DNA from: Candidatus Omnitrophota bacterium
Lineage (GTDB): Bacteria; Omnitrophota; Gorgyraeia; Zapsychrales; Zapsychraceae
Assembly: GCA_050250375.1 (NCBI GenBank)
Contig: JBFWOS010000003.1
Location: 273,284-337,283, forward strand
Direction of reading: 5' to 3'
DNA: 64,000 nucleotides
The position numbers and the translations under genes were made by a program. The notes below the pieces were generated by a model. That model was not told where the DNA came from and did no database searches. It saw only the letters and a list, made by a program, of their open reading frames with translations. Position 1 is the stretch's first letter. Every line of letters begins with the position of its first letter. Positions 950-35,700 of the stretch are shown here, in pieces.

Positions 950-1972
950 TCAGCCGCTGATGCTGGCAAAACGCACCTTGTCCCCTTCTTTAACTTTTAA
1001 CGCCTGCGCGATGTCTCTCTGGATCGTAATGCCTTTTCCATTCTTGATCAGTGTCCCCATGACCGCCCTGAACCGGTCAAGTCCGGTCGCATTGGCAATC
1101 AGATAAACGGATTGCCGGTTAATCGTCTGGACAATTTTAAAAACCTTCATCTCGCGGCTTTTCTTGACGGTACGAATGTTCCTGACTTTTGTTCCGACAA
1201 CCGGACCGGCTTCAAAAATGTCGATTTCATTAATAAACTTAAAATTCTCCTGGTTCAGCAGCCGCAACGCCGACTCGGTATCTTTATGGACCTGGCCGAT
1301 GGCTTTCTGGGCCGATAAAGGAAGGATCGGGATATAGATGGGATGCTCCGGAATCAAATCGGCGATAAAAGATTTATCTTCCATCACCATCAGATCGGCC
1401 TTCTTAAATTCCATTTCGAAAAAATGTTTGCAGACCGCGTTCCAGAACGGAGACCGGTCTTCATCGTCAAGAATACCCCTCATCTCGGCGATAACAAACT
1501 CCTCAAAACATTGCGGGTACTGGGCCATGAACAAAAACCGGCTCAATGATAACAGACGCCCCAGCCCCTTCTGGCGGACATCAGGACTTAAGAATAACGT
1601 TCCGATTTCACTCGGCCCGTTGTATTCTTTTTTCAGAACGAGATACTGAATCTTAATATTAACCCCTAATGTTTTTGATCGGTTTACCGCTGTTTTTAAT
1701 TCATAGGTATAAGAAGGTTCAAACCCGCCGACCTTCGACATGACGGCACAGGTCCCGACAACACGCCCGCTTTCAATATCTTCCATCACAAAAAAATAAT
1801 TTTCCCCGTTCGGTTTGGTAACGGCCTGTGAAAAATCATAAATAGATTTATCAATCCGTCGTCGCAAGAGTTTTTTATTATGTGGAAACGTGGTCAGGCC
1901 AGCCTTTGTGAGGCTGGACAATTTGTAGAGCTGCTCCAAATCCTTTTTCACGACCGGGCGTACGACATACAT
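950..1972 (-). CDS. astA: arginine N-succinyltransferase
   Basis: 340 aa. The N-terminus MYVVRPVVKKDLEQLYKLS..TLFLSPD..GLGRLLSLSRFLFMA..VIAEMRG..SPFW..IGQVH is co-linear with E. coli AstA (MMVIRPVERSDV..). Sits between a class-III aminotransferase and astD, as in astCAD. Confidence 0.85.
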   Translation of the reverse strand: MYVVRPVVKKDLEQLYKLSSLTKAGLTTFPHNKKLLRRRIDKSIYDFSQAVTKPNGENYFFVMEDIESGRVVGTCAVMSKVGGFEPSYTYELKTAVNRSKTLGVNIKIQYLVLKKEYNGPSEIGTLFLSPDVRQKGLGRLLSLSRFLFMAQYPQCFEEFVIAEMRGILDDEDRSPFWNAVCKHFFEMEFKKADLMVMEDKSFIADLIPEHPIYIPILPLSAQKAIGQVHKDTESALRLLNQENFKFINEIDIFEAGPVVGTKVRNIRTVKKSREMKVFKIVQTINRQSVYLIANATGLDRFRAVMGTLIKNGKGITIQRDIAQALKVKEGDKVRFASISG

Positions 1973-1976
1973 TGGT

Positions 1977-3356
1977 TTAGCCCTCCCTCAAGACTTGCCC
2001 GATGATCCGGGAAACATCATCAATATCTTCTTTGGTTACCGCCATCACCGGCATCAGGAATCTGACCCTGGCTGGATTAGCCCCGGCGGAAAACCCCATG
2101 ACGCCGTTGTCATAAAGCCGCATTAAAAATTCTTTGGTTTTCTGCGGACATCCGTCCTTGAACGTCATGCCGACCATGGCCCCTAAACCGAACGGCCCTT
2201 TAATCAGATCGGGGAACTGCCGGGACAGGTTTTCCAGATGGGACCGGAAATGATCAGATAGCTTTGATATCTTGCCCTCATCCCCCAAATAATTTCCGTG
2301 AAGCAGCTCCAGCAGGATGACTTTCCCGGCGTGTAAGGCCGATGTCGATGCCGTAAATGTCTGGCTCAATAATCCGGGCTTCGGGTTAAAGTCCCGGCTG
2401 AACAATGTCGCGCAGACCTGCGTCATCTTTCCGACCGTCACAACATCAACGTACGGATCAAGGCCGAAATACTGAAATGCGAATGCGTCCGTTGTCCGGC
2501 CGAAGGTCTGGATTTCGTCAATCATCACCGCCACGTTATTATTTTTTAAGACATCCATAATTGATTTAAAAAAGTCGGTCTGCCCCGGATAATATCCCCC
2601 TTCCCCCTGGATCAACTCAAAACACATCCCAGCGTATTCATTTCTATTTTTCCCGAGAAGTGAATTCAGCTGTTTTACAGCGGCCGCTGTGCTCTCTTCA
2701 GGATTGTTATGATCAAAAAATGGGATATAATCAACATTGATTGTTTGCGGAATCCCCTGACGGTATTCAGGTTTATCTGTCATTTGCGAAGTAGCGAGGC
2801 TCCTGCCGGTAAAACAATGGTTAAACGCAAGCAGTCGGTGGGCCGGTTCTTTTTTCTGAAATATAATTTTAAATGCATTCTCGTTGGCCATCGCCCCGGA
2901 GCTGGTTAGAAAACAATGCCCAAGACCGGCTCCATTCTTCTGAGCTGTTTTTAAAAGAAGCTCCATCACTTCAATGGAAGTTTGATCACATTGAAGGTTA
3001 CCCTGCATGACGGTGTCTTCAATCGCCGCGTCGATCCCGGCTCCTATTATTTTCGGGTGGCTGTGCCCCATCACGTGGACACCGATCCCGGTGATAAAAT
3101 CATACTTCACGCTCCCGTCCATCAATTCAACAAGCGCGCCCCGGCCGATACCGCTGGAAATATACGGATAAAAAAGCGGCCGTCCGCGCCATTCATTGAC
3201 CTTGTCCAGCCACTGGGCGTAACTCTTTTGCAGATTGATATCGCCTTTGCGGACCCTTTTTATTTTATTCTGATAATCAACCAAAGCATTGTGGATCAGC
3301 CGTTTGGCTTCTTTGATTCTGGGGTCATGGTTAAATTGTTCACCAATCGGTTTCAT
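1977..3356 (-). CDS. class-III (PLP-dependent) aminotransferase, putative succinylornithine transaminase analogue (AstC position) but longer and divergent
   Basis: 459 aa. Class-III motifs are present: GIGVHVMGHSHP, DEIQTFGRT, lysine-containing TVGKM. The position upstream of astA matches astC. It overlaps the upstream M20 gene by 4 nt. Confidence 0.7.
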   Translation of the reverse strand: MKPIGEQFNHDPRIKEAKRLIHNALVDYQNKIKRVRKGDINLQKSYAQWLDKVNEWRGRPLFYPYISSGIGRGALVELMDGSVKYDFITGIGVHVMGHSHPKIIGAGIDAAIEDTVMQGNLQCDQTSIEVMELLLKTAQKNGAGLGHCFLTSSGAMANENAFKIIFQKKEPAHRLLAFNHCFTGRSLATSQMTDKPEYRQGIPQTINVDYIPFFDHNNPEESTAAAVKQLNSLLGKNRNEYAGMCFELIQGEGGYYPGQTDFFKSIMDVLKNNNVAVMIDEIQTFGRTTDAFAFQYFGLDPYVDVVTVGKMTQVCATLFSRDFNPKPGLLSQTFTASTSALHAGKVILLELLHGNYLGDEGKISKLSDHFRSHLENLSRQFPDLIKGPFGLGAMVGMTFKDGCPQKTKEFLMRLYDNGVMGFSAGANPARVRFLMPVMAVTKEDIDDVSRIIGQVLREG

Positions 3357-4591
3357 AATCGTTTATCCTTATTGATCCAGCGCGAAAGAAACAGGGCCGT
3401 TAACTTGGCCCGTTGAGTAAAACTGTCTGTTAGAACGTATTCATCGTTGCTATGGATATTCCCTCCCTGGACTCCCAGGGTATCGATGGTCGGCAGGGCG
3501 GCTGCGGCCAAACGGTTTCCGTCGCACACCCCCCCGCTTTTAGTCCAGTTTAAATCAAACTGCAATTCCCTGGCGCATTCTTTGACCAGGCCGAATAATC
3601 CTTCAGTATTCTTATCAAACGGTTTTGGCGGGGCACTGAACTTTCCATAAATGTCAATTTGCACATCCCGTTCGCTTTCCACGGCCCCGGTAATTTTATC
3701 AATCTCCCGATCAAACAACGTTTGCATGTCCGGGCTGTTATAACGGACATTCAGATGCGCCATCGCAAAATCCGCCACGACATTCGCGGCTGTTCCTCCA
3801 TGCATTTTTCCGACATTGACGGTAAAATCATCTTTATTCGAAAAGATATCTTTAACTCGGGTAATCCAGAGGGCCAGGGCTTCAATGGCGTTTCTCCCTT
3901 CCTGCGGATTCCGTCCGGCGTGGGCTGATTTACCTTTAACCACCACCGTAAAGTTTCCTGAACCTTTCCGCTGCGATACAAGATCCCCGTTCGGCAGGGA
4001 AGGTTCAAAGACCAGCCCCAGATCAAACTGGGCCGCTTCTTTCATCAACATGCCGCCGGATGAGGGTGAACCGATTTCTTCATCAGTGTTAATAATCACT
4101 TTCCATCCGAATTTTTCACGGAACGCACATTGTTCAACCGCTTCCAGGGCCTTAAGCATGACGACTATACCACCCTTGGCATCTGTTATTCCCGGCCCCT
4201 TGATGGTATATTCATCCATCGTCTGGCAGGTCTGAAACGGTCCATCCGGCATATGTACAGTATCCATGTGACAGACAAAAAGGACCTGTTTCGGGGCGAC
4301 CGGACGCTTGGTCAGCGTCAATGCAGGTACAACCCCAAACGATTCGGCTTCCCCTTTTTCATTAATCATTTCGTAGGAAGGTAATTCAACCGGCCTGACC
4401 TCTTCGCCAAAAACGGAAAATGATCGTGTGATTTCTTTGGACAATTGACTAATTCCGGCCGGATTGGACCCATGTGTATTAATATCAGACCATTTCCGGG
4501 CCAACTCCACCATGGCCGTTTTTTGTCCGTCCAGCCACTTTAGGATATCCGTCATTTTTTCCATACTCACCGGCCTGTCGTTGTCTTTCAA
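3353..4591 (-). CDS. M20-family metallopeptidase (ArgE/DapE/CPG2-like amidohydrolase), first gene of the AST-like operon
   Basis: 412 aa. M20 metal-binding signature pieces: CHMDTV (H-x-D), GITDAKGG, TDEEIGS (EE), GGNIHSNDEY. The table start at 4591 is a TTG sitting inside a terminator T-run. The first ATG (MEKMTDIL..., ~4564) is the more likely start. Confidence 0.75.
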   Translation of the reverse strand: MKDNDRPVSMEKMTDILKWLDGQKTAMVELARKWSDINTHGSNPAGISQLSKEITRSFSVFGEEVRPVELPSYEMINEKGEAESFGVVPALTLTKRPVAPKQVLFVCHMDTVHMPDGPFQTCQTMDEYTIKGPGITDAKGGIVVMLKALEAVEQCAFREKFGWKVIINTDEEIGSPSSGGMLMKEAAQFDLGLVFEPSLPNGDLVSQRKGSGNFTVVVKGKSAHAGRNPQEGRNAIEALALWITRVKDIFSNKDDFTVNVGKMHGGTAANVVADFAMAHLNVRYNSPDMQTLFDREIDKITGAVESERDVQIDIYGKFSAPPKPFDKNTEGLFGLVKECARELQFDLNWTKSGGVCDGNRLAAAALPTIDTLGVQGGNIHSNDEYVLTDSFTQRAKLTALFLSRWINKDKRL

Positions 4592-5981: not shown

Positions 5982-6494
5982 ATGGGCCGATATGAAAATA
6001 TTACCAATGAGCAACTTCTTGAGTTCTCCGGTGAGCATTTATACTATGAGATCAGCATGTTGTACGGTGTCGTGGACCTGCTGAATACTAAGGAAAAAAT
6101 TGCTGACCCGTATATCATCAATGCCTTGATTGAATCTTTTGTCATCCATACACAAGTGATCCTTGATTTCTTTTACATGCCGCAGATGAAGGCTGATGAC
6201 GCCAAGGCCATCCATTACATTGATGACATAAAATTGTGGAAATCGAATCTGCCCTCTTATGACCGTTATTTCCGCAAATTTAACAGACGCCGGTCAAGGG
6301 AAGTTGTACATCTGAGTTACAGCCGTTTAGATGTAAAGGGAGAAGAAAAAACCTGGCATTTAGTTAAGACAACGGAGCATATAAAACTGGTCGTCAATGC
6401 TTTTCTTGAACATGCGAATAAGGGGCTTCTTCATCCGAAAATGTATGAATTAAAAAAAAATATTTCTGAGGATATCCTGCAGAACGACGAATAA
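5982..6494 (+). CDS. hypothetical protein (no recognisable domain)
   Basis: 170-aa ORF, the only plus-strand gene in a run of minus-strand genes, convergent with pilT. No motif recognised. Confidence 0.45.
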   Translation: MGRYENITNEQLLEFSGEHLYYEISMLYGVVDLLNTKEKIADPYIINALIESFVIHTQVILDFFYMPQMKADDAKAIHYIDDIKLWKSNLPSYDRYFRKFNRRRSREVVHLSYSRLDVKGEEKTWHLVKTTEHIKLVVNAFLEHANKGLLHPKMYELKKNISEDILQNDE

Positions 6495-6497
6495 TAA

Positions 6498-7952
6498 TTA
6501 TGTCTTAGTTTCTTCCGTAGAGAGTTTATTAATGGCTCCGGTCAGCAATTGATAATCCTGCGTTTTGACAACAAAATCATCCGCACCGGCGTTGGAAGCG
6601 TCGACGGAATAACTGGGCTGGTAGCTAGCACTGATCATGATCAGCTTAGCTTTCACATCTTTAATGCCTTTTATCTTTTTGCACGCTTCAAATCCGCTCA
6701 TATCTTTCAAGTGGGTGCTCAGAACCACCACATCCGGCTGTTCCTGCTGAATCAGGAGTTGCCCTTCTTTCAAGGTTTCTGAAAACAAGACTTCCCCTTT
6801 ATAGGTCTTCATCAAAGCATTACCCATCAGTTTGATCTCGTTGACGTTCTGGTCCAGAATGACAAACTTAAGTTTTTTATTTTTCGAGTTAAGGGCTTCT
6901 TTCAATTTCTGGCAATGCTGGTAATTGGCGTTTTCGCTGGCGGTTTCATAACTGATCAGATCGTCCTTGTACAAATTCGCCAGGCAGATTTCAAGAGAAT
7001 ACATCCCTTCCGTTTCACCGGCATCCAGCAATCCGCGTATTTCCTTAAAATCATTGCGCCGGATCAGATTTTGGACGGCCATCGTTCCAAGCATAATTTC
7101 CGTGGCCAGAATACGTTTGTTATCATCCTTGCGCGGCAGTAATGTCTGATAAATTATGGCAACGACATTCGAGGCCAATTGCGCGAGAATCTCTTCACGA
7201 AAACCCATCGGAAAAACAGAAACAATCCGGTTAAGCGTACCGATTGAGTCAGAGGCATGGATGGTCGTGATAACCAAGTGACCTGTTTCAGCCGTGGTCA
7301 ACGCGATACGCATGGACTCAAGGTCTCGCAACTCACCGATACAAACCACATCCGGGTCCTGACGCAGGGCATATTTCAGCGCGTTGGTAAAACTCTCCGT
7401 ATCTTTACCGACTTCCCGCTGGATAAAATAACTTTGTTTGGATTTATGATGATATTCAATCGGGTCTTCAATGGTGATAATCTTGCATTTCCGTTCCTGG
7501 TTGATCATGTCAATAATGCAGTTCATCGTCGTACTCTTTCCGCTGCCGGCCGTGCCGGACAAAAAGATGATACCTTTGCGCGTCTGTGCCAGTTTTTTGA
7601 CAATGGGATGCAGATTAAGCTCCTGATAAGGACGGATAAAGGCCGGCGTGATCCGAATGGCAGCGGCCATATTGCCTTCACTATAATGGATATTGACCCT
7701 TAACTGATACTTGTCCTGAAACGCATATGAAAAATCCAGTTCCTTGGTCTTGAAAAATATTCCTTTTTGTTCTTCCGAAAGCATATTCATCAGAAGATTC
7801 TGCAAAACTTCCGGGGTATAATGATCGCCCTCCATCTGGGTGAGATCCCCATGGATACGGAATATAGGCGCTTGATGCGCCAATAAATGGACGTCCGAGG
7901 CTTCCTTTTCTGTCGCGTATTCTAAGACTGAAGTAATTTCTGATATATTCAT
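6498..7952 (-). CDS. pilT: type IV pilus retraction ATPase PilT fused to a C-terminal degenerate receiver (REC-like) domain
   Basis: 484 aa. Residues ~1-350 contain the PilT/T2SSE core: Walker A GTAGSGKST, DPIEY, Asp box, TGHLV..T.H. The last ~120 aa (KLKFVILDQN..PDVVVLSTHLKDMSGFE..KLIMISAS..GADDFVVKT) follow the CheY-like fold order but have Ser at the phospho-acceptor position. Confidence 0.85.
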   Translation of the reverse strand: MNISEITSVLEYATEKEASDVHLLAHQAPIFRIHGDLTQMEGDHYTPEVLQNLLMNMLSEEQKGIFFKTKELDFSYAFQDKYQLRVNIHYSEGNMAAAIRITPAFIRPYQELNLHPIVKKLAQTRKGIIFLSGTAGSGKSTTMNCIIDMINQERKCKIITIEDPIEYHHKSKQSYFIQREVGKDTESFTNALKYALRQDPDVVCIGELRDLESMRIALTTAETGHLVITTIHASDSIGTLNRIVSVFPMGFREEILAQLASNVVAIIYQTLLPRKDDNKRILATEIMLGTMAVQNLIRRNDFKEIRGLLDAGETEGMYSLEICLANLYKDDLISYETASENANYQHCQKLKEALNSKNKKLKFVILDQNVNEIKLMGNALMKTYKGEVLFSETLKEGQLLIQQEQPDVVVLSTHLKDMSGFEACKKIKGIKDVKAKLIMISASYQPSYSVDASNAGADDFVVKTQDYQLLTGAINKLSTEETKT

Positions 7953-8033: not shown

Positions 8034-8453
8034 TTATTCACTTTCTTCATGATCCAGATGATACGATTCCAGTAAAAAAGCCAGTGCCCTGCATGCGTCA
8101 ACGGTCGTAAAAATCCCGACCAACTGATCGCCTTTGACAATCATGGCGCTTCCGTAATGGTGTTTGGCCATTTCTTTGGCGACTTCATCCAAGGGAGTAT
8201 TCGGGTCGACCGAATAAGGCTGTTCGTGATAAATATATTTTACCTGAAGAGTCAATGGAGAGGCTTTGACGCTTCCCGCAGATTTTAAATCCCGGTCCGA
8301 TACTATCCCTACCACTTTATTGTTAATAACCACCGGCAAATGGCGGATATTATACTTCTTCATGATTTGCTGGGCCTCGGCAATTGATGTATGTTCATCA
8401 ATCGTGTAAGGCTGCTTGGTCATGAAATCCTTAACTCTGGGGATCATCCTCAT
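8034..8453 (-). CDS. CBS-domain pair protein
   Basis: 139 aa. Two CBS motifs (IRHLPVV..GIVSDRDL ; GSAMIV..LVGIFTTVDACRAL). A paralog lies at 22566-22979. Confidence 0.8.
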   Translation of the reverse strand: MRMIPRVKDFMTKQPYTIDEHTSIAEAQQIMKKYNIRHLPVVINNKVVGIVSDRDLKSAGSVKASPLTLQVKYIYHEQPYSVDPNTPLDEVAKEMAKHHYGSAMIVKGDQLVGIFTTVDACRALAFLLESYHLDHEESE

Positions 8454-8909: not shown

Positions 8910-9923
8910 TCAACGTTCTTCATAATCAAATTGATCATCAAAATCTTCTGTACCAATATCCGCGATTCTTTCACGTTCAAATGTGGCCACATGAAATATA
9001 GCGTCTCCCCGGTTGACCAGCGGTAATTGTGTGCGTCCGATAATAAGACCTTTTTTGGAAGCCCGGATTTCAATATTTTTATTCCCCAGAGGATCCGAAA
9101 TAACCCCTAAAAGGTCCCCCTGCTGAATAATCTTTCCCAATGCTTTTTTGATAATCAATATCCCGCTATGTTCGGCCCTGACCCAAAACCGCCCGTTGGC
9201 TGTCAGGGATTCCGCTTTTTTTTCTTTTTTCAAGGCAGATATCATCCCGAGAGCGCCCATGACCGACAATATCCCTGATATACCGCAGCGGATCACGTCT
9301 TCGTCATACCTCAAGGCCTCTCCGCCTTCAAACACAAGAAAAGGAAGATTTTTGCTCGCCGCCACTTTCCGCAACGAACCTTCAATGATCGTCGCATTGA
9401 TGACAACCGGTACGCCAAACTCATGCGCCAACCGGTTTGTGACCTTGTCGTTCAAACACGCTCTGACTTGTGGAAGGTTTGTCCGATGGCAGGAACCGGT
9501 ATGAATATCAATCCCATGGGTGGAATTTTCCAATATTTCCGTCACGAATAGATGGGCGAGCCGGGCGGCCAGAGAACCATTTTTTGATCCGGGAAAACAC
9601 CTGTTTAAATCCCTGCGATCCGGCAAATAACGGGTTAAACTGTTAAAACCGAAAACATTGACGATCGGGACGGCAATCAGTGTCCCTTTTAATTTTTTCA
9701 GAGCCCTGTGGCTAATCAACCTTTTGATGATCTCAACACCGTTAACTTCGTCCCCGTGAACCGCCGCGCAGACAAATAACCGCGGGCCGTCTTCTTTTCC
9801 CCGGATAACCTTGACCGGTATGCTGATTTCCGTGAAATCAAAAAGTTTGGCGACAAAAAGATTGATGTCTTTGGTTTCACCGGGCCGAATGGTTGTATCA
9901 CCGATAATAATGTCGTTGTTCAT
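8910..9923 (-). CDS. succinylglutamate desuccinylase/aspartoacylase (AstE/AspA) family zinc hydrolase, RimK partner
   Basis: 337 aa. Zn-carboxypeptidase-like motif AAVHGDEVNG, later HTGS..E. Overlaps the upstream rimK stop by 4 nt. Confidence 0.75.
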   Translation of the reverse strand: MNNDIIIGDTTIRPGETKDINLFVAKLFDFTEISIPVKVIRGKEDGPRLFVCAAVHGDEVNGVEIIKRLISHRALKKLKGTLIAVPIVNVFGFNSLTRYLPDRRDLNRCFPGSKNGSLAARLAHLFVTEILENSTHGIDIHTGSCHRTNLPQVRACLNDKVTNRLAHEFGVPVVINATIIEGSLRKVAASKNLPFLVFEGGEALRYDEDVIRCGISGILSVMGALGMISALKKEKKAESLTANGRFWVRAEHSGILIIKKALGKIIQQGDLLGVISDPLGNKNIEIRASKKGLIIGRTQLPLVNRGDAIFHVATFERERIADIGTEDFDDQFDYEER

Positions 9924-11092
9924 GCTTTTTTTAAAGACGACTTTCTTTTTTCATGTCTGTTCATGGAAACAATCGACTTCATGTTCTCCAGTTTTCCAAA
10001 ACACAGGAGTGTGTCGTTTTCCATAATTTCCCGGGTTGCTTTCGGGTTGGATATCGTCAGGTGATCCCGTTTAATACTCATAACAACAATATCTTTTTCC
10101 CTGAACCCCGCCTGATCCAAAATCTTTCCCTTGATATCAGAATTTCTTTTGATCTGAATCTCGGCGACCCCGTACCCTTTATCCAGGGTTAATCTCTGGC
10201 GTAAATCGATTTCCGGAAAATGGCTCTGTTCTTCCAGAAATTCGACCATAGCCCCGGCGACATCCTTGCCCGTTGCCCGTTCAATGCCTTCCAGGCCGGG
10301 TGAAGAATTGATCTCGACAATCTGCGGGCCGTCTTTACCTTCAAGCATATCCACCCCCGAAACATTCAGTCCCATGATCTGTGTGGCACGGATGGCCATC
10401 CGTTCATATTTTTCATCCAGCTTGACCGCTTCAACCTTTCCACCGCGGTGCACGTTGCTGCGGTATTCGCCTTTTTGAGCAATACGCCGCATGGCGGCAA
10501 TGACTTTACCTCCGGCGACAATAGCGCGAATATCCCGCCCCTTGCTCTCCTTCACAAATTTCTGGATCAGGACGTTCTGCCGCGTGCTGTGCAGGGTCTC
10601 AATAATCGCTTCGGCCACTTTATTCGTCTCCGCCAGGATCACACCGACCCCTTGAGTCCCTTCCAGCAGCTTAATGACGACCGGGGCTCCCCCTAGCTCT
10701 TCAATGGCTTTTAGAATGGATGACGGCTGTTTAACAAAAACGGTCTGCGGAAACCCGATATTGTGCCGCGCCAGCAGTTGCAAGGCCCTGAGTTTGTCCC
10801 TAGCCGTTAGGATACCCAATGAAGAGTTCAGGCAAAAAGTCCCCATCTGTTCAAACTGACGAACCACCGCTGTTCCGAAAAAAGTGATGGAAGCCCCGAT
10901 GCGGGGAATAACAGCGTCGTAATGTTTCAAATGTTTGTTATGATAACTGAGGTCGGGTTTGCCCTGTTGAACATTGATGGAAAAGTGCATCGTATCCAGC
11001 ACACGAACATCATGTCCTCTTTGCTTGCAGGCTTCAATAAGCCTTCGGGTGCTAAATAACTTCGCCCCGTGCGATAAAATAGCGATCTTCAT
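9920..11092 (-). CDS. rimK: RimK-family ATP-grasp alpha-L-glutamate ligase with a C-terminal TrkA-C (RCK_C)-like extension
   Basis: 390 aa. The first ~300 aa are co-linear with E. coli RimK (MKIAILS..AVIPRIG..LRQFE..KLVEGTQG.GV.LAE..EINSSPGLEGIE). The extra ~85 aa YGVAEIQIKRNSDIKGKILDQAGFREKDIVVMSIKRDHLTISNPKATREIMENDTLLCFG match the TrkA-C pattern. Confidence 0.85.
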   Translation of the reverse strand: MKIAILSHGAKLFSTRRLIEACKQRGHDVRVLDTMHFSINVQQGKPDLSYHNKHLKHYDAVIPRIGASITFFGTAVVRQFEQMGTFCLNSSLGILTARDKLRALQLLARHNIGFPQTVFVKQPSSILKAIEELGGAPVVIKLLEGTQGVGVILAETNKVAEAIIETLHSTRQNVLIQKFVKESKGRDIRAIVAGGKVIAAMRRIAQKGEYRSNVHRGGKVEAVKLDEKYERMAIRATQIMGLNVSGVDMLEGKDGPQIVEINSSPGLEGIERATGKDVAGAMVEFLEEQSHFPEIDLRQRLTLDKGYGVAEIQIKRNSDIKGKILDQAGFREKDIVVMSIKRDHLTISNPKATREIMENDTLLCFGKLENMKSIVSMNRHEKRKSSLKKA

Positions 11093-11163: not shown

Positions 11164-12231
11164 CTAAAACCAGTTCTGTTTTTTAAAATAAGCAATCATG
11201 CCTCCACCCAGACATACCATGACGCCAAGCACGGCAAAATAGGCGTAAGGCCATTTTAATTCAGGCATGATCTCAAAATTCATCCCGTAAATTCCCGCAA
11301 TAAAGGTTAACGGGATAAAGATGGCGGAAAAAATCGTGAGCACCTTCATGATTTCATTCATCTTGTTGCTCATAACCGATAGATAAATATCATGCATGCT
11401 GGATAAAATATCCCGGTAAGATTCAATGGTATCCATAACCTGGACAACGTGGTCATAAATGTCTCTCAGAAAAATATCAATCTTCTTGCTGACGAGTTTT
11501 GATTCGTTGCGCAACAACGAATTAATCACTTCCCGTACGGGCCAAATTTGTTTTCTTAAATAAACCATACTGCGTTTCAGATAGTGAATCTGATGGACCA
11601 TATCGGGCTTTATATCTTTTGTCAAATCGTCTTCCAGAGCTTCAATATTACTCCCCAGGTCTTCCAGGACAATATAATAGTTGTCAACGATCGCGTCCAT
11701 CAGCGCGTAGGCCAGGTAATCCGAGCCCATGGTCCTGATGCGGCCTTTTCCGTTTCGGATACGCTCCCGGACAGGATCAAAGACATCTCCCGTATCTTCA
11801 AGATATGAAATGACATAATTTTTCCCCAGGATCAAACTGATCTGCTCCGAAACAATTTCGTTCTTCTGCTCTTTGTCCCGGTAAAGCATCTTGAGGGTGA
11901 TAAACAGATACTCGTCATGTTCTTCCAGTTTGGGCCTATGCCCGGTATTGGCTATATCTTCCGACACAAGCACATGAACCCCGTAATAATCGTTAATCGT
12001 CTTGAGTAATTCTGTGTCATGCACCCCGTCTACATTGATCCAGGTCACGGAACTCTTATCACGGAACTCAAAACACTCTTCCACGCGATTCACTTCTTTT
12101 TCTTCAAAACCCTTCGGGCTGTAGTCGATAACATTTATTTTAACGGGATGATCTGTCTTTTTACCGACATGCGTCAATGTCCCGGGTGCAGAACCTGGAG
12201 TTTTTGAACCCAGTTTAATAAATTTTGGCAC
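11164..12231 (-). CDS. corA: CorA magnesium/cobalt transporter
   Basis: 355 aa. Two C-terminal TM helices with the signature YGMNFE..MPEL. Confidence 0.85.
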   Translation of the reverse strand: MPKFIKLGSKTPGSAPGTLTHVGKKTDHPVKINVIDYSPKGFEEKEVNRVEECFEFRDKSSVTWINVDGVHDTELLKTINDYYGVHVLVSEDIANTGHRPKLEEHDEYLFITLKMLYRDKEQKNEIVSEQISLILGKNYVISYLEDTGDVFDPVRERIRNGKGRIRTMGSDYLAYALMDAIVDNYYIVLEDLGSNIEALEDDLTKDIKPDMVHQIHYLKRSMVYLRKQIWPVREVINSLLRNESKLVSKKIDIFLRDIYDHVVQVMDTIESYRDILSSMHDIYLSVMSNKMNEIMKVLTIFSAIFIPLTFIAGIYGMNFEIMPELKWPYAYFAVLGVMVCLGGGMIAYFKKQNWF

Positions 12232-15479: not shown

Positions 15480-16448
15480 TCAGGAATTTTTCCGCGGATT
15501 CTTTCGTTTGATAATTTTCTGCCGGTTAACCTGTTTGACCAGCAGGATCCAGGTCAGCAGACCCAAACCAATCATGCCGACAAGAAACAGACTGTAAGCC
15601 AGCCTCCAGTCAACGACCCCTTCTGTCACACGGGTATATTCCGACATCCCGCCGATGCCGGCGATAAGATTGAGAGGAAGGAACACCACATTGATCAGTG
15701 TCAAATTCTTCAGGAAGATATTCATGTTATTGTTGATGATATTCCCGCGCGCGTCCATGAGCCCTGAAAGAACCGATGAATATATCTGCGTCTGTTTGCT
15801 GCATTGCTGATGTTCAATCATAATGTCATCCAGCATCTCCTGCTCTTCTTTCGAGAAACCAATCCTTTCCGCATTGGCCCTGAGCTTGACCAGCGCCGAT
15901 GCGTTGGCCTCAAGCGCGTTAAGATAATAAATCAGACTTTCGCTCAAATTAAACATCTGCAGTAAATACTGATTCTCCATCGACAAATTCAGTTTCGCTT
16001 GCAGTTCGGCATTAATCTGCCGGATCCCTTTCAGATGCCCCAGGAAATGATGGATCGTCTGCAGTAAAAACCTTAAGACAAACCCATTAAGAGAAGTCAT
16101 CCCGTGGAATTCTTTTGACGCAAACGGAATGGTGTTTTCCCCGAGGATTAAAGTCACTTTATCTTTATTCAGGAAGATCCCCAGCGAGGAAACTTCAAAC
16201 GATAACTGTTCTTTAAAAGCGAACGTATTTGGACGCTTCCAGATGATTGAAAGGTAATGTGTCAGGAATTCAACCCGCGAGATTTCATCCGGGTCCAGCG
16301 CCGATTCAAGGGTATGCTGGTCAATCTTCAGGGTTTCCAGCAATTCTTTTTTCTCAGACTCGTTGGGCAATGCATAAACGATGATCTTGCCCGCCTCTAG
16401 TGTACTTGGAACAATACACCCGCCACTGAGTTCAAAATATTCCTTCAC
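15480..16448 (-). CDS. divergent CorA/ZntB-family divalent-cation transporter (GMS variant of the GMN motif)
   Basis: 322 aa. CorA-like architecture with two C-terminal TM helices. The loop reads IAGIGGMSEY instead of YGMNFE. Confidence 0.7.
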   Translation of the reverse strand: MKEYFELSGGCIVPSTLEAGKIIVYALPNESEKKELLETLKIDQHTLESALDPDEISRVEFLTHYLSIIWKRPNTFAFKEQLSFEVSSLGIFLNKDKVTLILGENTIPFASKEFHGMTSLNGFVLRFLLQTIHHFLGHLKGIRQINAELQAKLNLSMENQYLLQMFNLSESLIYYLNALEANASALVKLRANAERIGFSKEEQEMLDDIMIEHQQCSKQTQIYSSVLSGLMDARGNIINNNMNIFLKNLTLINVVFLPLNLIAGIGGMSEYTRVTEGVVDWRLAYSLFLVGMIGLGLLTWILLVKQVNRQKIIKRKNPRKNS

Positions 16449-32388: not shown

Positions 32389-32790
32389 TCAGCGTCTGGA
32401 CGGATCGAATGAATTTCTGGTCTGTTCATCAAAAATCATGTAATAAAGGCTAATTCCGTGGAGGATCGTACCGATGGGAAATCCGATAAGAAAAACAGCC
32501 GAAACCATCATTTGAAAAATCCGGGCGGATTCTTTCAAGGCCGACAAACCTTTATTTATAAAATATAACAAAACGATCGGGACAGCGCCGACAGCCAGAA
32601 TCAAAAAAATCATTCCGGTGATATCCAGCCAGGTGATTTCTCCGGCGGCAGACAACCGTCCTTCCTCAATCAGATCCGGCAGGATCATCCCCAAAGCCAG
32701 TACAATCACAATGACAGCCACGCCCATCTGTAAACGATTAATAACGATGGAATACTTAACACCAAAAGGTAATCGGGGATCTAACGTCAT
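32389..32790 (-). CDS. small multi-pass membrane protein, translationally coupled to the giant ORF
   Basis: 133 aa, 3-4 hydrophobic helices. Its ATG overlaps the giant ORF's stop (ATGA, 4-nt overlap). Confidence 0.5.
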   Translation of the reverse strand: MTLDPRLPFGVKYSIVINRLQMGVAVIVIVLALGMILPDLIEEGRLSAAGEITWLDITGMIFLILAVGAVPIVLLYFINKGLSALKESARIFQMMVSAVFLIGFPIGTILHGISLYYMIFDEQTRNSFDPSRR

Positions 32791-35700
32791 TTCTTAACCA
32801 TTAAATCCTTATCCGTCTCTGAATAACCCATAAGGAACAACCCGGGGTTGATCATCGGTGTAAACTGGATGATATTGAATTCCATTCCCTGAAAATTAAT
32901 CAGTGGTACGGCCGGGACCGTGAGCGGCGATGTGTCTATTGTGTTACTCTGTATCGTCATGACTTTGCTTTCAGTATTCCTTAAATCAATCCCACCTTTT
33001 TTAGCGGAGGACTGTTGCAGATCTTCGGCTGTTTCTTTCTCAAAATCAGAATAACGCAGTACCCCGTCTGAATTTGTATTGGCCAGAACAGCCATGTCGC
33101 CAAAAACATACCCGAATTTCTCCTGGGTCAAAAGATCTGTTTCCATGGTCAATTCTTCAATCAACTCTTTCCCAAAATGGGCCAGATGCGGTTGTTGTTC
33201 ATCGATTAATTTTTCCAAGGCCCCCAGGTTTTTGACCGGGATAATGAACCGCCAGTCAAGGATACTATCATTGTGTTGGTCGACTTCAAAATCATGGGCC
33301 CCCAATTGTTCAAGTCTCTTGCGGTCGCCTTCATTCAACTCGAGTCCTCCGCCGATGGTATTATACTGGACCGGTTTTCCTGTTTTAACAGGGCCGTGCC
33401 GCATCAGGAGCAGCTTTCCATCAACCATGAATCTAACCCGGCTTTTAACCGTCACGCGGACCTCACCAAATCTTTCCAGCGCATCGCCTCGGTCGTCATA
33501 AACCGTTTTGTGGGGTACCGCAGAAAACAAACGATAACGTTCGGCCATACCCAGCTGGTCAAATTGTTTGAGGACCGGCGGGACATTGCGTGTGATGACG
33601 GCTTCTACAGGTTCGCCTCCGATGGTCGTTTCAAAACGCCCGTTCAAGATTTCTTCATCCGTAGCCAGAATGAACTTCCCGTCGCTACCGCTGGCAGCTT
33701 CACGAAAAATGTCCTCCCCTTCGGGGCTCAATTGCGCGTCATAAACCTTCATGTACGTCACGGAAGGTTTTTTATTGCTCTCGGAATAAAACTGACGCTG
33801 ACCTTCGTAAGATATCGTAACGTGAGGCCCCGTATAAATCGTCTGGCTCAACGGATTAATAAGCCGGTTCGACTTAACGCTGACCTTATCATGAAATTGT
33901 GTTTTCTTGAGAGTTTCATCTTCCATCGCTTTTGTCATCCGCTCGCGTCTTATTTTCCTTAAGGCAAATTTCACTTCAAGGCTCAAGAATATGACGGGAA
34001 TTGTAGCCGGAAAGAGCAACCCTGATAATAAAATTGGGATGCTGAACATCTTCCGGTTTTTGGTCAGATAATTTTTCATTTTTTCGTCAAGTTTGTTTCG
34101 TTCCTCTTCACTTATGTTTTTGTCATTTCTGAAGCGTTCAATGATATTTTCAAAGAAACTGAACTCTTCATCCGGTTCCATATAGGCTAAGTAAGGAAGA
34201 ATTCTTGAAATCACGATGAAATAAACAATCGACAATGAGGCCAAAGACAGGCCGAATACTTCGGGGGTGGTAAATACTTCCGTTATCGTAATATCAGGGA
34301 AACTGGGGAGCCCTAGTTTTTCAAGCACTAAATCTAGAGTTGGGACTATGACAAAGACAGAACTGATGAAAAACAATACTGTATAAATAAATTTCATCGC
34401 CATGCTGAAATTTCTCTGATGCAGGTCGCTGCCGGTGGCAAGGCTGTGCTGAGGCAGGTATTGATAAGAACTATCAATGCTGTCATGTTCATCTCTTAGA
34501 TTTTTTAATTTACGTTCATATAAAGCCGCCCGGAAAATCGGCGGCTGGGAAGAACTGATGATTTTGGCCTGTGCGATCTCCAGGTCTTTAAGCGTATCAG
34601 ACATTTCATCGATGGTAACGAGCACGTCATTGCTGGACCACTCATACAGCGATGTGACCCCGAAGAAATCTCTTAATTTGGCCGCAAGAGTAATCCCGAA
34701 CGGTTTCCATAAAAATCTGCTTTTCGCCTCCTGAAATTGACTTTTCAAGACATAGAGTCCGGTAAAACTGGCCATCAGCAGTCTTACTTGATTAGCGTAT
34801 TGGGCCAGCGTCAGAAAATATTCCTGATATTTCAACAGGTCCGGACTGTTCGCCCGGGTCAGAACCATGTAGCTGTCCAAGGCATATTCCCGGATTTCAT
34901 TATAGTATCCGGCATTCTTCTTAAAATCTCCGATCTTAAGATCCGAGGAATCCATAAACTGCTGGATCCGGGTTACCAGGCGGTTTAGCGGTTCAAGATC
35001 AAGACGCTCGGGATTTTCCTTAAACTGGTCCCATTCGTTCATCAAATCAATGAATCCGTCTTTGCTTACCGCGATTTCAACCGTTTTCTGATCCTGCCCT
35101 TGCGGCTGGAACCCTATCCCCAGGGCTTCAACACCGGCAGGGACATCCTGTACGTTTATGCGGATACCCGTTGGATGATGGTCGACGGAAACCCTGTCCG
35201 GCTCGACTTCTACCCGCCGGCCCTCTTCAATCAAATATAATTTCAACCGAGGATCATCCCCCCCGGCCGCAGTCCCTTGACTATTATTCACAAAAGCCGT
35301 TTGAATATTCTGAAGCATACTCCTTTTATTCCTGAAGAAACTTTCAGCGAATATACGCAATTCGACATGCCCGTTGACCCGGACCGTTTTAACATCATAA
35401 AAACGCGATGATTTCAGACGAAATAACGGCGTCCACCCCTTGGATTTTGGCATGAAATGTCGAGAAAAATAATTCAAAAACTCCCCCTTAACGGAAATTT
35501 TCGATGACTCTGCTTTAATCCCGTTAATATCCGCCCGTGGATCCATGGACTTTAACTTATTCAGTTTCTTTTGATATTCCCTTTCGGTCGCAAAAATAAA
35601 ACTGTTCGGGACAATAAGCCGGGTCAACCCGAAGCTTCCGACTGCCAGCAAAAATGGAATAAATAAATTAATCAAGAACCCCAGATTCCAGAGCACCAGA

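What the first reader, a model, noticed from the sequence alone, without database searches (positions are those of the whole stretch)
6498..7952. PilT retraction ATPase carrying a C-terminal pseudo-receiver domain (Ser at the phospho-Asp position)
The first ~350 residues are a canonical PilT (Walker A GTAGSGKST, Asp/His boxes). The last ~120 residues have receiver-domain order (..FVILDQN.. / ..VVVLSTHLKDMSGFE.. / ..IMISAS.. / ..GADDFVVKT..). The acidic pocket is DQ instead of DD, and the phospho-acceptor Asp is replaced by Ser. This looks like a phosphorylation-independent regulatory module welded to the pilus motor. It may be an interaction or allosteric domain. PilT is normally a single-domain protein.
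Basis: seen in the sequence. Interest (0 to 1): 0.6.

Follow-up and report, generated by a model that had tools for sequence, protein, structure and literature searches.

The report
Pilus retraction motor with fused pseudo-receiver
A gene in an uncultivated Omnitrophota bacterium encodes an apparently active PilT pilus-retraction ATPase permanently fused to a signalling (receiver) domain that has lost its phosphorylation site; the fusion is real, rare and limited to a small lineage, and suggests built-in control of the pilus motor that does not depend on phosphorylation.

Summary

- **PilT part.** Residues 6-345 score above the curated PilT/PilU cut-off. All ATPase motifs are intact.
- **Receiver part.** Residues 362-478 form a Pfam-significant receiver domain. 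The AlphaFold model has a (βα)5 fold that superposes on solved receivers (TM 0.8-0.89).
- **Active site.** Mapped on CheY: D13→Q368, D57→S412, T87→S441, K109→K463. This is an aspartate-less pseudo-receiver.
- **Not an artefact.** About 27 independent homologues carry the same in-frame architecture. Those with a source name are Omnitrophota; one MAG is labelled Planctomycetales.
- **Evolution.** The sister group keeps the acceptor Asp (15 of 18) and has 34-49-aa variable linkers. The window's clade (bootstrap 100/100) has S, G or N at that position and a fixed 21-aa linker. Its domain is under purifying selection.
- **Rarity.** An exhaustive search of 1.84 billion representatives found only about a dozen such clusters. 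No paper describing the fusion was found.
- **Most likely function.** A phosphorylation-independent module acting in cis on the motor's ATPase cycle or its partner binding, like DrdR or FrzS acting in trans. This step is inferred.

Verdict: a new variant of known kinds, of moderate interest.

The parts
6498..7952 (-). Complete CDS of the PilT-pseudo-receiver fusion protein (484 aa; stop codon 6498-6500)
   Evidence: ORF list and translation. 100% identical to P0001, named 'PilT/PilU family type 4a pilus ATPase [Candidatus Omnitrophota bacterium]', on an 872-kb contig.
6918..7937 (-). PilT-family ATPase module (residues 6-345: N-terminal domain plus RecA-like ATPase domain)
   Evidence: TIGR01420 scores 390.8 bits, above the 319.1 cut-off. 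Best solved relatives are PilT of A. aeolicus 2EWV (E 5.5e-76), 6OJX and 3JVU/3JVV; PilU is weaker at 5e-58.
7530..7556 (-). Walker A, GTAGSGKST (residues 133-141)
   Evidence: G133, A135, G136, G138, K139 and T141 are invariant in the family alignment.
7452..7481 (-). Asp box, IITIEDPIEY (residues 158-167)
   Evidence: E162, D163, P164 and E166 are invariant.
7323..7358 (-). Walker B with catalytic Glu, DPDVVCIGELRD (residues 199-210)
   Evidence: D199, P200, D201, G206, E207, R209 and D210 are invariant.
7257..7286 (-). His box, TGHLVITTIH (residues 223-232)
   Evidence: T223, G224, H225 and H232 are invariant.
7056..7079 (-). AIRNLIRE-like PilT signature helix, AVQNLIRR (residues 292-299)
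   Evidence: It aligns to 'airnlire' of Aquifex PilT. N295, I297, R298 and R299 are invariant.
6870..6917 (-). Short conserved helical linker (residues 346-361, HCQKLKEALNSKNKKL)
   Evidence: AF2 predicts helix 348-356. 'KLKEA' is invariant in the clade. The interdomain segment counted from residue 341 is fixed at 21 aa in this clade, against 34-49 variable residues in the other fusion proteins.
6519..6869 (-). Aspartate-less pseudo-receiver domain (residues 362-478), (βα)5 fold
   Evidence: Pfam PF00072 E 5e-13. AF2 pLDDT 88 with five β-α units. Foldseek PDB top hits are BfmR, KdpE, VicR and CheY receivers, TMt 0.8-0.89, rmsd about 1.9 Å.
6849..6854 (-). Strand-1 acidic pair position: D367-Q368 (CheY D12-D13)
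   Evidence: The D13 position is never Asp in the 26 tabulated family members or in L009.
6717..6719 (-). S412, at the position of the phospho-acceptor Asp (CheY D57)
   Evidence: The position is S, G or N in all 8 clade members and D in 15 of 18 sister proteins.
6630..6632 (-). S441, at the conserved Thr/Ser switch position (CheY T87)
6561..6566 (-). K463-T464, the conserved Lys (CheY K109) followed by Thr instead of Pro
   Evidence: Lys is kept in 22 of 26 members.
8034..8453 (-). Upstream same-strand CBS-pair gene (139 aa), 81 nt from the pilT-REC start; a possible partner, linked only by conserved adjacency
   Evidence: Pfam CBS E 8.4e-30. The same adjacency occurs in L001 and L088 although the outer neighbours differ. 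90% identical to the L088 copy.
5982..6494 (+). Convergent 170-aa ORF with no Pfam match, conserved next to the fusion gene in the closest relatives; role unknown
   Evidence: No Pfam hit. 67% identical to the equivalent ORF in L001. A 161-aa ORF occupies the same place in L088.

Best explanation
The gene encodes a catalytically competent PilT-type hexameric ATPase, the motor that depolymerises type IVa pili. Each subunit carries a receiver-fold domain at its C-terminus, joined by a short conserved helical linker. That domain cannot be phosphorylated on Asp.

The fusion arose once, in a lineage seen so far almost only in Omnitrophota. Sister proteins still have the acceptor Asp and long flexible linkers. 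In the window's clade the Asp was lost and the linker was fixed at 21 residues. The domain most likely became a constitutive module acting in cis. Six copies per hexamer would bias the motor's ATPase or conformational cycle. They could also serve as the docking surface that decides when and where the motor engages the pilus platform or a partner, possibly the adjacent CBS protein.

Shown here: domain identities, intact ATPase motifs, receiver fold, loss of the acceptor, conservation and purifying selection of the fusion, and its clade-specific history. Inferred: hexamer decoration, action in cis on ATPase activity or partner binding, and pilus retraction as the output.
For: Identity of the two modules: PilT; receiver fold.

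Active-site mapping.

The fusion is real and conserved. 14 full-length proteins align end to end. Further clusters were found, and two more loci. Every source name that gives a taxon says Omnitrophota.

The window clade is monophyletic, 100/100 NJ bootstrap on the PilT part alone. All its members have S, G or N at the acceptor position and a 21-aa linker, against D and 34-49 aa in most others.

Purifying selection on the pseudo-receiver. dN is 0.12 between the window and P0002 while synonymous sites are saturated. There are no stops or frameshifts in the 7 full-length clade proteins (6 of the genes read as DNA). The motifs LKDM-x-G (415-420; F or Y at 421) and KLKEA are invariant and β5-α5 is well conserved.

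Link to pili. T4aP genes are common in all Omnitrophota classes (PMC10066038). Prepilin-like or PilB-like genes lie near homologues in L005, L006 and L009.

Precedents. The stand-alone tandem-REC protein DrdR, which contains a pseudo-receiver, binds PilB and PilT and raises their ATPase activity (PMC13507683). The FrzS pseudo-receiver controls T4P polarity (PMC1974792, PMC9811614). ALR domains are enriched on rare output domains and tend to act constitutively (PMC4395418).
Against: - No experiment or multimer model shows where the receiver domain sits on the hexamer. The monomer AF2 model has pTM 0.61 and a low-confidence linker.
- No T4P machinery gene lies in the 64-kb window. Whether this genome also has a plain PilT was not tested.
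- The receiver part evolves about twice as fast as the PilT part.
- The gene neighbourhood is not conserved beyond the closest relatives, so no partner is established.
Confidence: 0.6

Rival explanations
1. The domain is still a signal input, but through something other than Asp phosphorylation: Ser/Thr phosphorylation by a Hanks-type kinase, a small ligand, or regulated binding of the neighbouring CBS-pair (adenine-nucleotide-sensing) protein. Retraction would then be switched on and off rather than constitutively tuned.
For: In L001 a Pkinase and a PP2C gene lie immediately upstream of the CBS-pilT-REC pair. The CBS gene stays adjacent in three genomes despite rearranged outer neighbours and is 90% conserved. 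The ALR and pseudo-receiver literature documents other inputs, for example c-di-GMP binding to the ShkA pseudo-receiver (PMC7010744), and discusses other post-translational modifications (PMC4395418).
Against: Position 412 is S, G or N in the clade, so it is not a conserved phospho-Ser site. No kinase or phosphatase genes flank the gene in the window or in L088. CBS adjacency is absent in P0005, P0006 and P0007 and in the Asp-keeping relatives. The window's receiver domain has no Arg at all, which argues weakly against cyclic-dinucleotide binding.
Confidence: 0.2
2. The protein is a PilT paralogue that does not retract pili. It would be an accessory or regulatory ATPase alongside a canonical PilT, or a motor for another type IV filament-like or predation-related system.
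For: The gene is an orphan with no pil genes within 64 kb. Many bacteria carry several PilT paralogues of unclear role, for example four PilT proteins in Geobacter sulfurreducens and four PilT-like paralogues in Myxococcus xanthus (PMC5065972, PMC13584747).
Against: The score is above the curated PilT/PilU cut-off. The protein is closer to solved PilT than to PilU or DotB. The AIRNLIRE-like helix is kept. pilT genes are usually outside pilus operons (general knowledge). Pilin-like or PilB-like genes lie near three homologues.
Confidence: 0.15
3. The receiver domain is a decaying relic with no function left after the loss of its phosphorylation site.
For: It evolves faster than the PilT part: 40-79% against 70-89% identity within the clade, and dN about twice as high. 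The former acceptor position drifts among S, G and N.
Against: dN is 0.12-0.49 while synonymous sites are saturated. There are no stops, frameshifts or indels in the 7 full-length clade proteins that diverged to 62-70% identity. The linker length is fixed and the motifs are invariant. The AF2 model is confident, pLDDT 88. Independent losses of the Asp (P0106, L009) also kept the domain.
Confidence: 0.05
4. The fusion is an assembly or sequencing artefact: a frameshift or chimeric join of a pilT gene and a separate response-regulator gene.
For: None found.
Against: The identical protein appears in two sources and on two contigs. About 27 homologues from independent samples and assemblers share the same in-frame architecture. 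The linker is conserved in sequence within the clade.
Confidence: 0.01

Closest known systems
PilT retraction ATPases (A. aeolicus 2EWV/2GSZ, the 6OJX series (Geobacter metallireducens PilT, PMC6858323), P. aeruginosa 3JVU/3JVV)
   Same: Residues 6-345 align end to end. E is 5.5e-76 to 2EWV and 3.4e-70 to 3JVU. Walker A, Asp box, Walker B, His box and the AIRNLIRE-like helix are all present. The score is above the TIGR01420 cut-off.
Aspartate-less receiver / pseudo-receiver domains (ALR, PsR; Maule et al. 2015 PMC4395418; Bourret et al. 2025 PMC12632262)
   Same: The domain is recognised by PF00072, has the (βα)5 fold and lacks two of the five active-site residues, including the acceptor Asp. 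It sits on a rare 'output', as ALRs tend to.
   Different: The domain is C-terminal to its partner domain, and that partner is a PilT motor. This combination is not mentioned in either survey.
DrdR of Xanthomonas campestris (tandem-REC orphan regulator; PMC13507683)
   Same: A receiver-fold protein containing a pseudo-receiver physically contacts PilT (and PilB) and changes its ATPase activity. This is the same functional pairing that is proposed here in cis.
   Different: DrdR is a separate protein acting in trans and keeps one functional receiver. It has no detected sequence kinship with this domain beyond the fold; this was not tested directly.
FrzS of Myxococcus xanthus (PMC1974792, PMC9811614)
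   Same: A pseudo-receiver that lacks the Asp, fails to bind Mg2+ or the phosphoryl analogue, and controls type IV pilus function through protein-protein interaction and localisation.
   Different: FrzS is an N-terminal pseudo-receiver plus a coiled coil, not fused to an ATPase. It acts on pilus activation through SgmX rather than on the retraction motor.
TadZ/CpaE atypical receiver domain, and NtrC-type REC-AAA+ regulators (recalled from general knowledge, not tested here)
   Same: Receiver-fold domains covalently attached to an oligomeric NTPase. TadZ works in a pilus system. In the NtrC class the receiver controls ring assembly.
   Different: In both, the receiver domain is N-terminal and the ATPase belongs to a different class (MinD/ParA-like or AAA+). 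NtrC receivers are phosphorylated.

Membership tests
PilT/PilU family type IVa pilus ATPase (TIGR01420) | Full-length match to the family HMM above the curated cut-off | tested here: met
   390.8 bits against a cut-off of 319.1; residues 6-345 cover profile positions 2-341 of 343.
PilT/PilU family type IVa pilus ATPase (TIGR01420) | Walker A, Asp box, Walker B with catalytic Glu, and His box | tested here: met
   GTAGSGKST, IITIEDPIEY, DPDVVCIGELRD and TGHLVITTIH. The key residues are invariant across 14 homologues.
PilT/PilU family type IVa pilus ATPase (TIGR01420) | PilT-specific AIRNLIRE helix | tested here: inconclusive
   AVQNLIRR matches 5 of 8 residues and aligns to 'airnlire' of Aquifex PilT. 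Solved PilT scores higher than PilU, 259 against 200 bits. No curated PilT-versus-PilU test was available.
PilT/PilU family type IVa pilus ATPase (TIGR01420) | Works with a T4aP machine (PilB, PilC, PilM-Q, pilins) in the same genome and retracts pili | not testable with these tools
   Only 64 kb of the genome is available and it holds no pil genes. T4aP genes are common in Omnitrophota (PMC10066038).
Receiver domain (PF00072, CheY-like) | HMM match above the gathering score and a (βα)5 flavodoxin-like fold | tested here: met
   49.6 bits against 30.2. The AF2 model has five β-α units at pLDDT 88. Foldseek PDB hits are receivers, TMt 0.8-0.89.
Receiver domain (PF00072, CheY-like) | Five conserved active-site residues (DD, D, T/S, K) | tested here: not met
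   D367, S441 and K463 are kept. D13 is Q368 and the acceptor D57 is S412. It is therefore not a functional phospho-receiver.
Pseudo-receiver / aspartate-less receiver (definitions of PMC12632262 and PMC4395418) | Computationally a receiver but lacking one or more catalytic residues (PsR); lacking the phosphorylatable Asp (ALR) | tested here: met
Pseudo-receiver / aspartate-less receiver (definitions of PMC12632262 and PMC4395418) | Not phosphorylated in vitro or in vivo | not testable with these tools
   Needs biochemistry.
Two-component response regulator | Phosphorylatable receiver with a cognate histidine kinase controlling an output domain | tested here: not met
   There is no acceptor Asp. 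No other receiver domain was detected among the window's ORFs, and none of the ORFs scanned with Pfam has a histidine-kinase domain (smaller ORFs were not scanned). No conserved kinase neighbour exists in 9 related loci; kinases a few kb away in L002 and L088 are not syntenic.

The most novel reading that the evidence does not exclude
PilT-REC proteins are an undescribed class of response regulator in which the output domain is the pilus retraction motor itself. In the Asp-keeping sister clade a two-component signal would directly gate retraction through a long tether. In the window's clade the switch would have been hard-wired by loss of the Asp and shortening of the linker. If so, the pair of clades is a natural 'switchable versus locked' experiment on how a receiver fold controls a PilT hexamer. 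It would also be direct fusion-based evidence for the long-suspected link between CheY-like proteins and PilT in twitching control.
Probability: 0.3. Interest if true: 0.6.

Novelty: new variant of a known kind. Interest (0 to 1): 0.4.

Why it matters
How bacteria decide between pilus extension and retraction is only partly understood. CheY-like proteins (PilG/PilH, PixG/PixH, DrdR, FrzS) are implicated, but direct contacts with the motors are sparsely documented. A natural covalent fusion of a receiver fold to PilT, kept under selection in a whole lineage, is independent genomic evidence that this fold acts directly on the retraction motor.

It also offers a compact construct for structural work: one polypeptide that needs no kinase. 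The sister clades, with and without the acceptor Asp, give a ready-made comparison for studying how pseudo-receivers become constitutive. [quoted passage not shown]

Omnitrophota are ultra-small and possibly predatory or parasitic. Type IVa pili are thought to matter for their attachment to hosts (PMC10066038). Against this, pseudo-receivers as such are common (about 4-6% of receivers), and the protein is already auto-annotated as a PilT/PilU ATPase with a Pfam REC hit. The advance is modest until the protein is tested.

Tried and rejected
- **AlphaFold-database fold search.** A search with the full-length model, meant to find other PilT-REC architectures, could not run because the library was unavailable.
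- **Genome-collection scan.** The 17-sequence alignment had no conserved stretch to search with. Only L008 and L009 were full-span hits, so the taxonomic range in GTDB genomes is under-sampled.
- **Formal dN/dS.** It could not be computed because synonymous sites are saturated in almost every comparison. Only the qualitative conclusion, dN far below dS, is used.
- **S412 as a phospho-Ser substitute for phospho-Asp.** Rejected because the position is S, G or N among close relatives.
- **CBS homologue upstream of P0005.** The 139-aa gene there is not a CBS homologue (E 0.57), so the CBS link holds only for the window/P0002/P0004 sub-clade.
- **Pilus genes in the window.** phmmer found no further PilT or REC paralogue. 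A regular-expression scan found no prepilin signal. Pfam scans of 30 ORFs found no pilus genes.
- **Promoter and terminator scan around the gene.** No more sites than shuffled sequence gives, so co-transcription with the CBS gene remains undecided.
- **Literature.** Searches for a described PilT-receiver fusion found none. The two pseudo-receiver surveys do not mention it.
- **Tree rooting.** It was redone with the Aquifex PilT sequence taken from tool output.
Full report
**1. What is in the sequence**

The coordinates 6498..7952 hold one uninterrupted ORF of 484 codons. It lies on the minus strand: ATG at 7952, stop at 6498-6500. An AGGA lies about 11 nt upstream of the start. All homologues begin at the same Met. 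The plus-strand reading is full of stops.

Pfam reports two significant domains:
- T2SSE at residues 6-281, E 2.5e-42.
- Response_reg at 365-474, E 5e-13, 49.6 bits against a gathering score of 30.2.

NCBIfam's PilT/PilU model TIGR01420 covers residues 6-345 with 390.8 bits, above its curated cut-off of 319.1.

The best solved relatives are PilT proteins:

| Structure | E-value |
|---|---|
| A. aeolicus PilT, 2EWV | 5.5e-76 |
| PilT, 6OJX series | 1e-75 |
| PilT, 3JVU/3JVV | 3.4e-70 |
| PilU | 5e-58 |
| DotB | 5e-27 |

All catalytic motifs are present, and their key residues are invariant in the family:
- Walker A GTAGSGKST (133-141)
- Asp box IITIEDPIEY
- Walker B DPDVVCIGELRD, with the catalytic Glu207
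- His box TGHLVITTIH
- AVQNLIRR, which aligns to the AIRNLIRE helix

The ATPase part therefore looks fully functional.

**2. The C-terminal domain is a receiver fold without a phospho-acceptor**

The last 134 residues alone hit CheY and OmpR-type receivers in the PDB by sequence (best E 1.9e-08). An AlphaFold2 model of residues 346-484 is confident: pLDDT 88, pTM 0.82. After a short linker helix it has five β-α units. Foldseek against the PDB returns only receiver or response-regulator-type domains among the top 50, including BfmR, KdpE, VicR, CheY and Spo0A. Target-normalised TM-scores for the receiver-only chains among them are about 0.8-0.89 and rmsd is about 1.9 Å.

| CheY residue | Window residue |
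|---|---|
| D12 | D367 |
| D13 | Q368 |
| D57 | S412 |
| T87 | S441 |
| A88 | A442 |
| K109 | K463 |
| P110 | T464 |

HMMER's alignment to T. maritima CheY also places S412 opposite the acceptor Asp, 'pdvvvlS' against 'pdivtmD'. Two of the five catalytic residues are missing, including the acceptor. By the definitions in PMC12632262 and PMC4395418 this is a pseudo-receiver of the aspartate-less (ALR) kind.

**3. The fusion is real, lineage-specific and rare**

The identical protein is in NCBI as 'PilT/PilU family type 4a pilus ATPase [Candidatus Omnitrophota bacterium]', on an 872-kb contig.

The word-indexed search returned 13 further full-length PilT+REC proteins:
- six at 63-86% identity and about 480 aa (P0002-P0007);
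- seven at 46-48% identity and 496-514 aa.

An exhaustive HMMER search of 1.84 billion cluster representatives used residues 280-484, that is, the end of PilT plus the receiver. It added five more full-length clusters, an N-terminally cut 429-aa sequence (P0133) and six shorter fragments. Below those came only ordinary receivers. Every source name that gives a taxon says Omnitrophota or Omnitrophica. A scan of GTDB species genomes found two more full-span copies, one Omnitrophota MAG (L008) and one MAG labelled Planctomycetales (L009).

About 27 independent assemblies share the same in-frame architecture, which excludes a frameshift or chimera. The architecture amounts to about a dozen 50%-identity clusters out of 1.84 billion, so it is rare. 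No paper describing it was found. The two surveys of pseudo-receivers do not mention PilT or pili.

**4. Evolutionary history of the active site**

tabulates the window protein and 25 relatives; L009 was read separately.

| Feature | Window clade (8 sequences incl. fragment P0121) | Other fusion proteins (18 tabulated) |
|---|---|---|
| D13 position | never Asp | never Asp (Glu in P0111 and P0133) |
| Acceptor position | S, G or N | Asp in 15; Ala in P0106; Glu in P0136 |
| Segment between PilT core and strand β1 | exactly 21 aa; 'KLKEA' invariant; AF2 helix 348-356 | 34-49 variable, low-complexity residues |

L009 has Thr at the acceptor position and Ser-Pro in strand 1.

A neighbour-joining tree built from the PilT part alone recovers the seven full-length clade members (window, P0002-P0007) as monophyletic in 100 of 100 bootstraps. 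Rooted with Aquifex PilT, this clade is sister to the rest.

The parsimonious history is one fusion event with an Asp-containing, though already atypical, receiver on a long tether. At the base of the window's clade the Asp was then lost and the tether contracted. P0106 and L009 lost the Asp independently.

Position 412 varies within the clade, so the Ser is not a conserved replacement phospho-site.

**5. The pseudo-receiver is maintained by selection**

Within the clade the receiver part is 40-79% identical to the window's, against 70-89% for the PilT part. Between the window and P0002, dN is 0.122 for the receiver and 0.064 for PilT. Synonymous sites are saturated in almost every pair, so dN/dS is far below 1 although it cannot be given as a number.

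The 7 full-length clade proteins carry no stop, frameshift or indel in the receiver domain (6 of the genes were read as DNA). The segment right after the former acceptor (L415-K-D-M-x-G420, then F or Y at 421) is invariant, and strand β5 and helix α5 (…GADDFVVKTQDYxLL…) are well conserved in the clade. A relic without function is therefore unlikely.

**6. Genomic context**

The window holds no other PilT or receiver paralogue and no ORF with a prepilin-type N-terminus. Pfam scans of 30 ORFs found no pilus machinery. pilT genes commonly lie outside pilus operons (general knowledge).

Directly upstream on the same strand, after an 81-nt gap, is a 139-aa CBS-pair gene. Downstream, convergent, is a 170-aa ORF with no Pfam match. 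This triad is kept in the two closest sequenced relatives, L001/P0004 and L088/P0002, although the outer neighbours differ. The CBS protein is 90% identical between the window and L088. L001 additionally has a Ser/Thr kinase gene and a PP2C gene just upstream of the CBS gene.

In the more distant members the neighbours are unrelated: TPR proteins, Amt plus P-II, Ni-SOD, Ank repeats. No histidine kinase is consistently adjacent. The 139-aa upstream gene of P0005 is not a CBS homologue.

Pilus-related genes do occur close to some homologues:
- a prepilin (N_methyl) gene 4.5 kb downstream in L005;
- an MshEN-T2SSE (PilB-like) gene 7 kb downstream in L006;
- a weak prepilin-like gene (N_methyl just below Pfam's cut-off) and a DUF4900 gene (function unknown) directly upstream in L009.

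Type IVa pilus genes are reported as common in all Omnitrophota classes and are linked to attachment in a possibly predatory or parasitic lifestyle (PMC10066038).

**7. Most likely mechanism**

Shown here:
- an intact PilT-type ATPase;
- a covalently attached receiver fold that cannot accept a phosphoryl group on Asp;
- selection for keeping that fold;
- a short, conserved, probably helical connector in exactly the clade that lost the Asp.

Inferred: PilT works as a hexamer that binds the PilC platform and cycles through open and closed subunit interfaces (PMC6858323). Six receiver domains would therefore decorate the ring. They would be attached about 45 residues after the AIRNLIRE-like helix, a region needed for retraction but not for ATP hydrolysis (general knowledge).

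I propose that the domain acts in cis and without phosphorylation. It would bias the hexamer's conformational or ATPase cycle, or provide the surface through which the motor is recruited to or kept from the pilus base or a partner.

Three precedents support this:
- DrdR, a stand-alone tandem receiver protein with one pseudo-receiver, binds PilT and PilB and increases their ATPase activity (PMC13507683).
- The FrzS pseudo-receiver controls type IV pilus polarity by protein-protein contacts (PMC1974792, PMC9811614).
- ALR domains in general retain post-phosphorylation-like conformations and dimer interfaces and act constitutively or through other inputs (PMC4395418).

I put about 0.9 on the identity statement (PilT motor plus aspartate-less receiver, a genuine conserved fusion) and about 0.45 on the specific mode of action. 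The combined figure is 0.6.

**8. Rival explanations**

| Rival | Assessment | Confidence |
|---|---|---|
| Regulated input other than Asp phosphorylation (CBS partner, Ser/Thr kinase, ligand) | Plausible. Supported only by adjacency in a sub-clade. The domain has no Arg, which argues weakly against cyclic-dinucleotide binding. | 0.2 |
| PilT paralogue with a non-retraction role | Cannot be excluded without the whole genome. | 0.15 |
| Decaying relic | Disfavoured by selection (section 5). | 0.05 |
| Assembly artefact | Refuted (section 3). | 0.01 |

**9. Comparison with what is known, and novelty**

Both parts belong to well-known families. The PilT membership tests are met, except that function and genomic partners could not be tested. 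The true-receiver test fails on the catalytic residues. The pseudo-receiver/ALR definition is met.

Pseudo-receivers are common: about 6% of bacterial receivers, with ALRs about 4% of all receivers. Loss of the Asp is therefore not remarkable in itself.

What I could not find described is the architecture: a receiver fold C-terminal to a PilT motor, its restriction so far almost entirely to Omnitrophota, and the paired clades with and without the acceptor Asp. I rate it a new variant of a known kind.

Interest is moderate (0.4). The fusion would give specialists a useful 'Rosetta-stone' argument and a handy construct for studying receiver-to-PilT coupling. It does not overturn any expectation, and the mechanism is untested.

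**10. Limits**

- Only 64 kb of the genome is visible.
The acceptor assignment was checked independently against T. maritima CheY from PDB output. The tree was repeated with the Aquifex PilT sequence taken from tool output.

Noticed in passing
hits (e.g. P0008-P0062), not in the window: Most of the top-scoring homologues are proteins of about 710-770 aa that match the PilT query at high score with about 70% query coverage. They look like tandem PilT-PilT fusions, though this was not checked, and come from Myxococcota, Lentisphaerae, Oligoflexia and metagenomes. This would be another unusual PilT architecture.
   Followed up: no
window 32787-39041 (-): A 2084-aa ORF whose only Pfam match is a SMODS-associated NUDIX domain at residues 1860-1979 (E 2.7e-09). 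It is a very large, otherwise unannotated protein, possibly related to defence or to the giant proteins reported in Omnitrophota.
   Followed up: no
window 8034-8453 (-) and 5982-6494 (+); L001, L088: The CBS-pair gene upstream and the convergent 170-aa ORF with no Pfam match form a triad with pilT-REC. The triad is conserved in the two closest relatives despite different outer neighbours (CBS 90% identical, 170-aa ORF 67% identical).
   Followed up: partly
L001 8013-9443: In the P0004 genome a Ser/Thr protein kinase gene and a PP2C phosphatase gene are inserted between the AstE-like gene and the CBS-pilT-REC pair. They are absent from the same place in the window and in L088.
   Followed up: partly
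L009 1274-6224: In a MAG labelled Planctomycetales the PilT-REC gene (acceptor Thr, strand 1 'SP') lies directly downstream, on the same strand, of a prepilin-like gene (N_methyl, just below the Pfam cut-off), a 261-aa ORF, a 568-aa DUF4900 protein with a hydrophobic N-terminus, and a 124-aa ORF. This may be a minor-pilin cluster. The taxonomic label of the bin was not verified.
   Followed up: partly
P0171, P0260, P0127, P0128: The closest receivers outside the fusion family share the unusual β5 motif 'KT.D[FY]' (Thr instead of the usual Pro after the conserved Lys). They occur as an extra C-terminal receiver on proteins whose N-terminal part resembles CheB by eye (not scanned) and in tandem-receiver proteins. 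This may be the source of the domain that was fused to PilT.
   Followed up: no
window 950-4591 (-), 8910-11092 (-), 11164-12231 (-), 15480-16448 (-): Neighbouring genes include an arginine succinyltransferase (Ast)-type cluster, assigned by synteny with L001 (AstA, aminotransferase, M20 peptidase). There is also an overlapping RimK-like ATP-grasp gene (with a TrkA_C domain) and AstE/AspA-like gene pair, and two separate CorA-family genes about 3 kb apart.
   Followed up: no
window 6519-6869 (-): The receiver domain of the window protein (and of P0002) contains no arginine at all but 14 lysines. Relatives have 1-8 Arg.
   Followed up: partly
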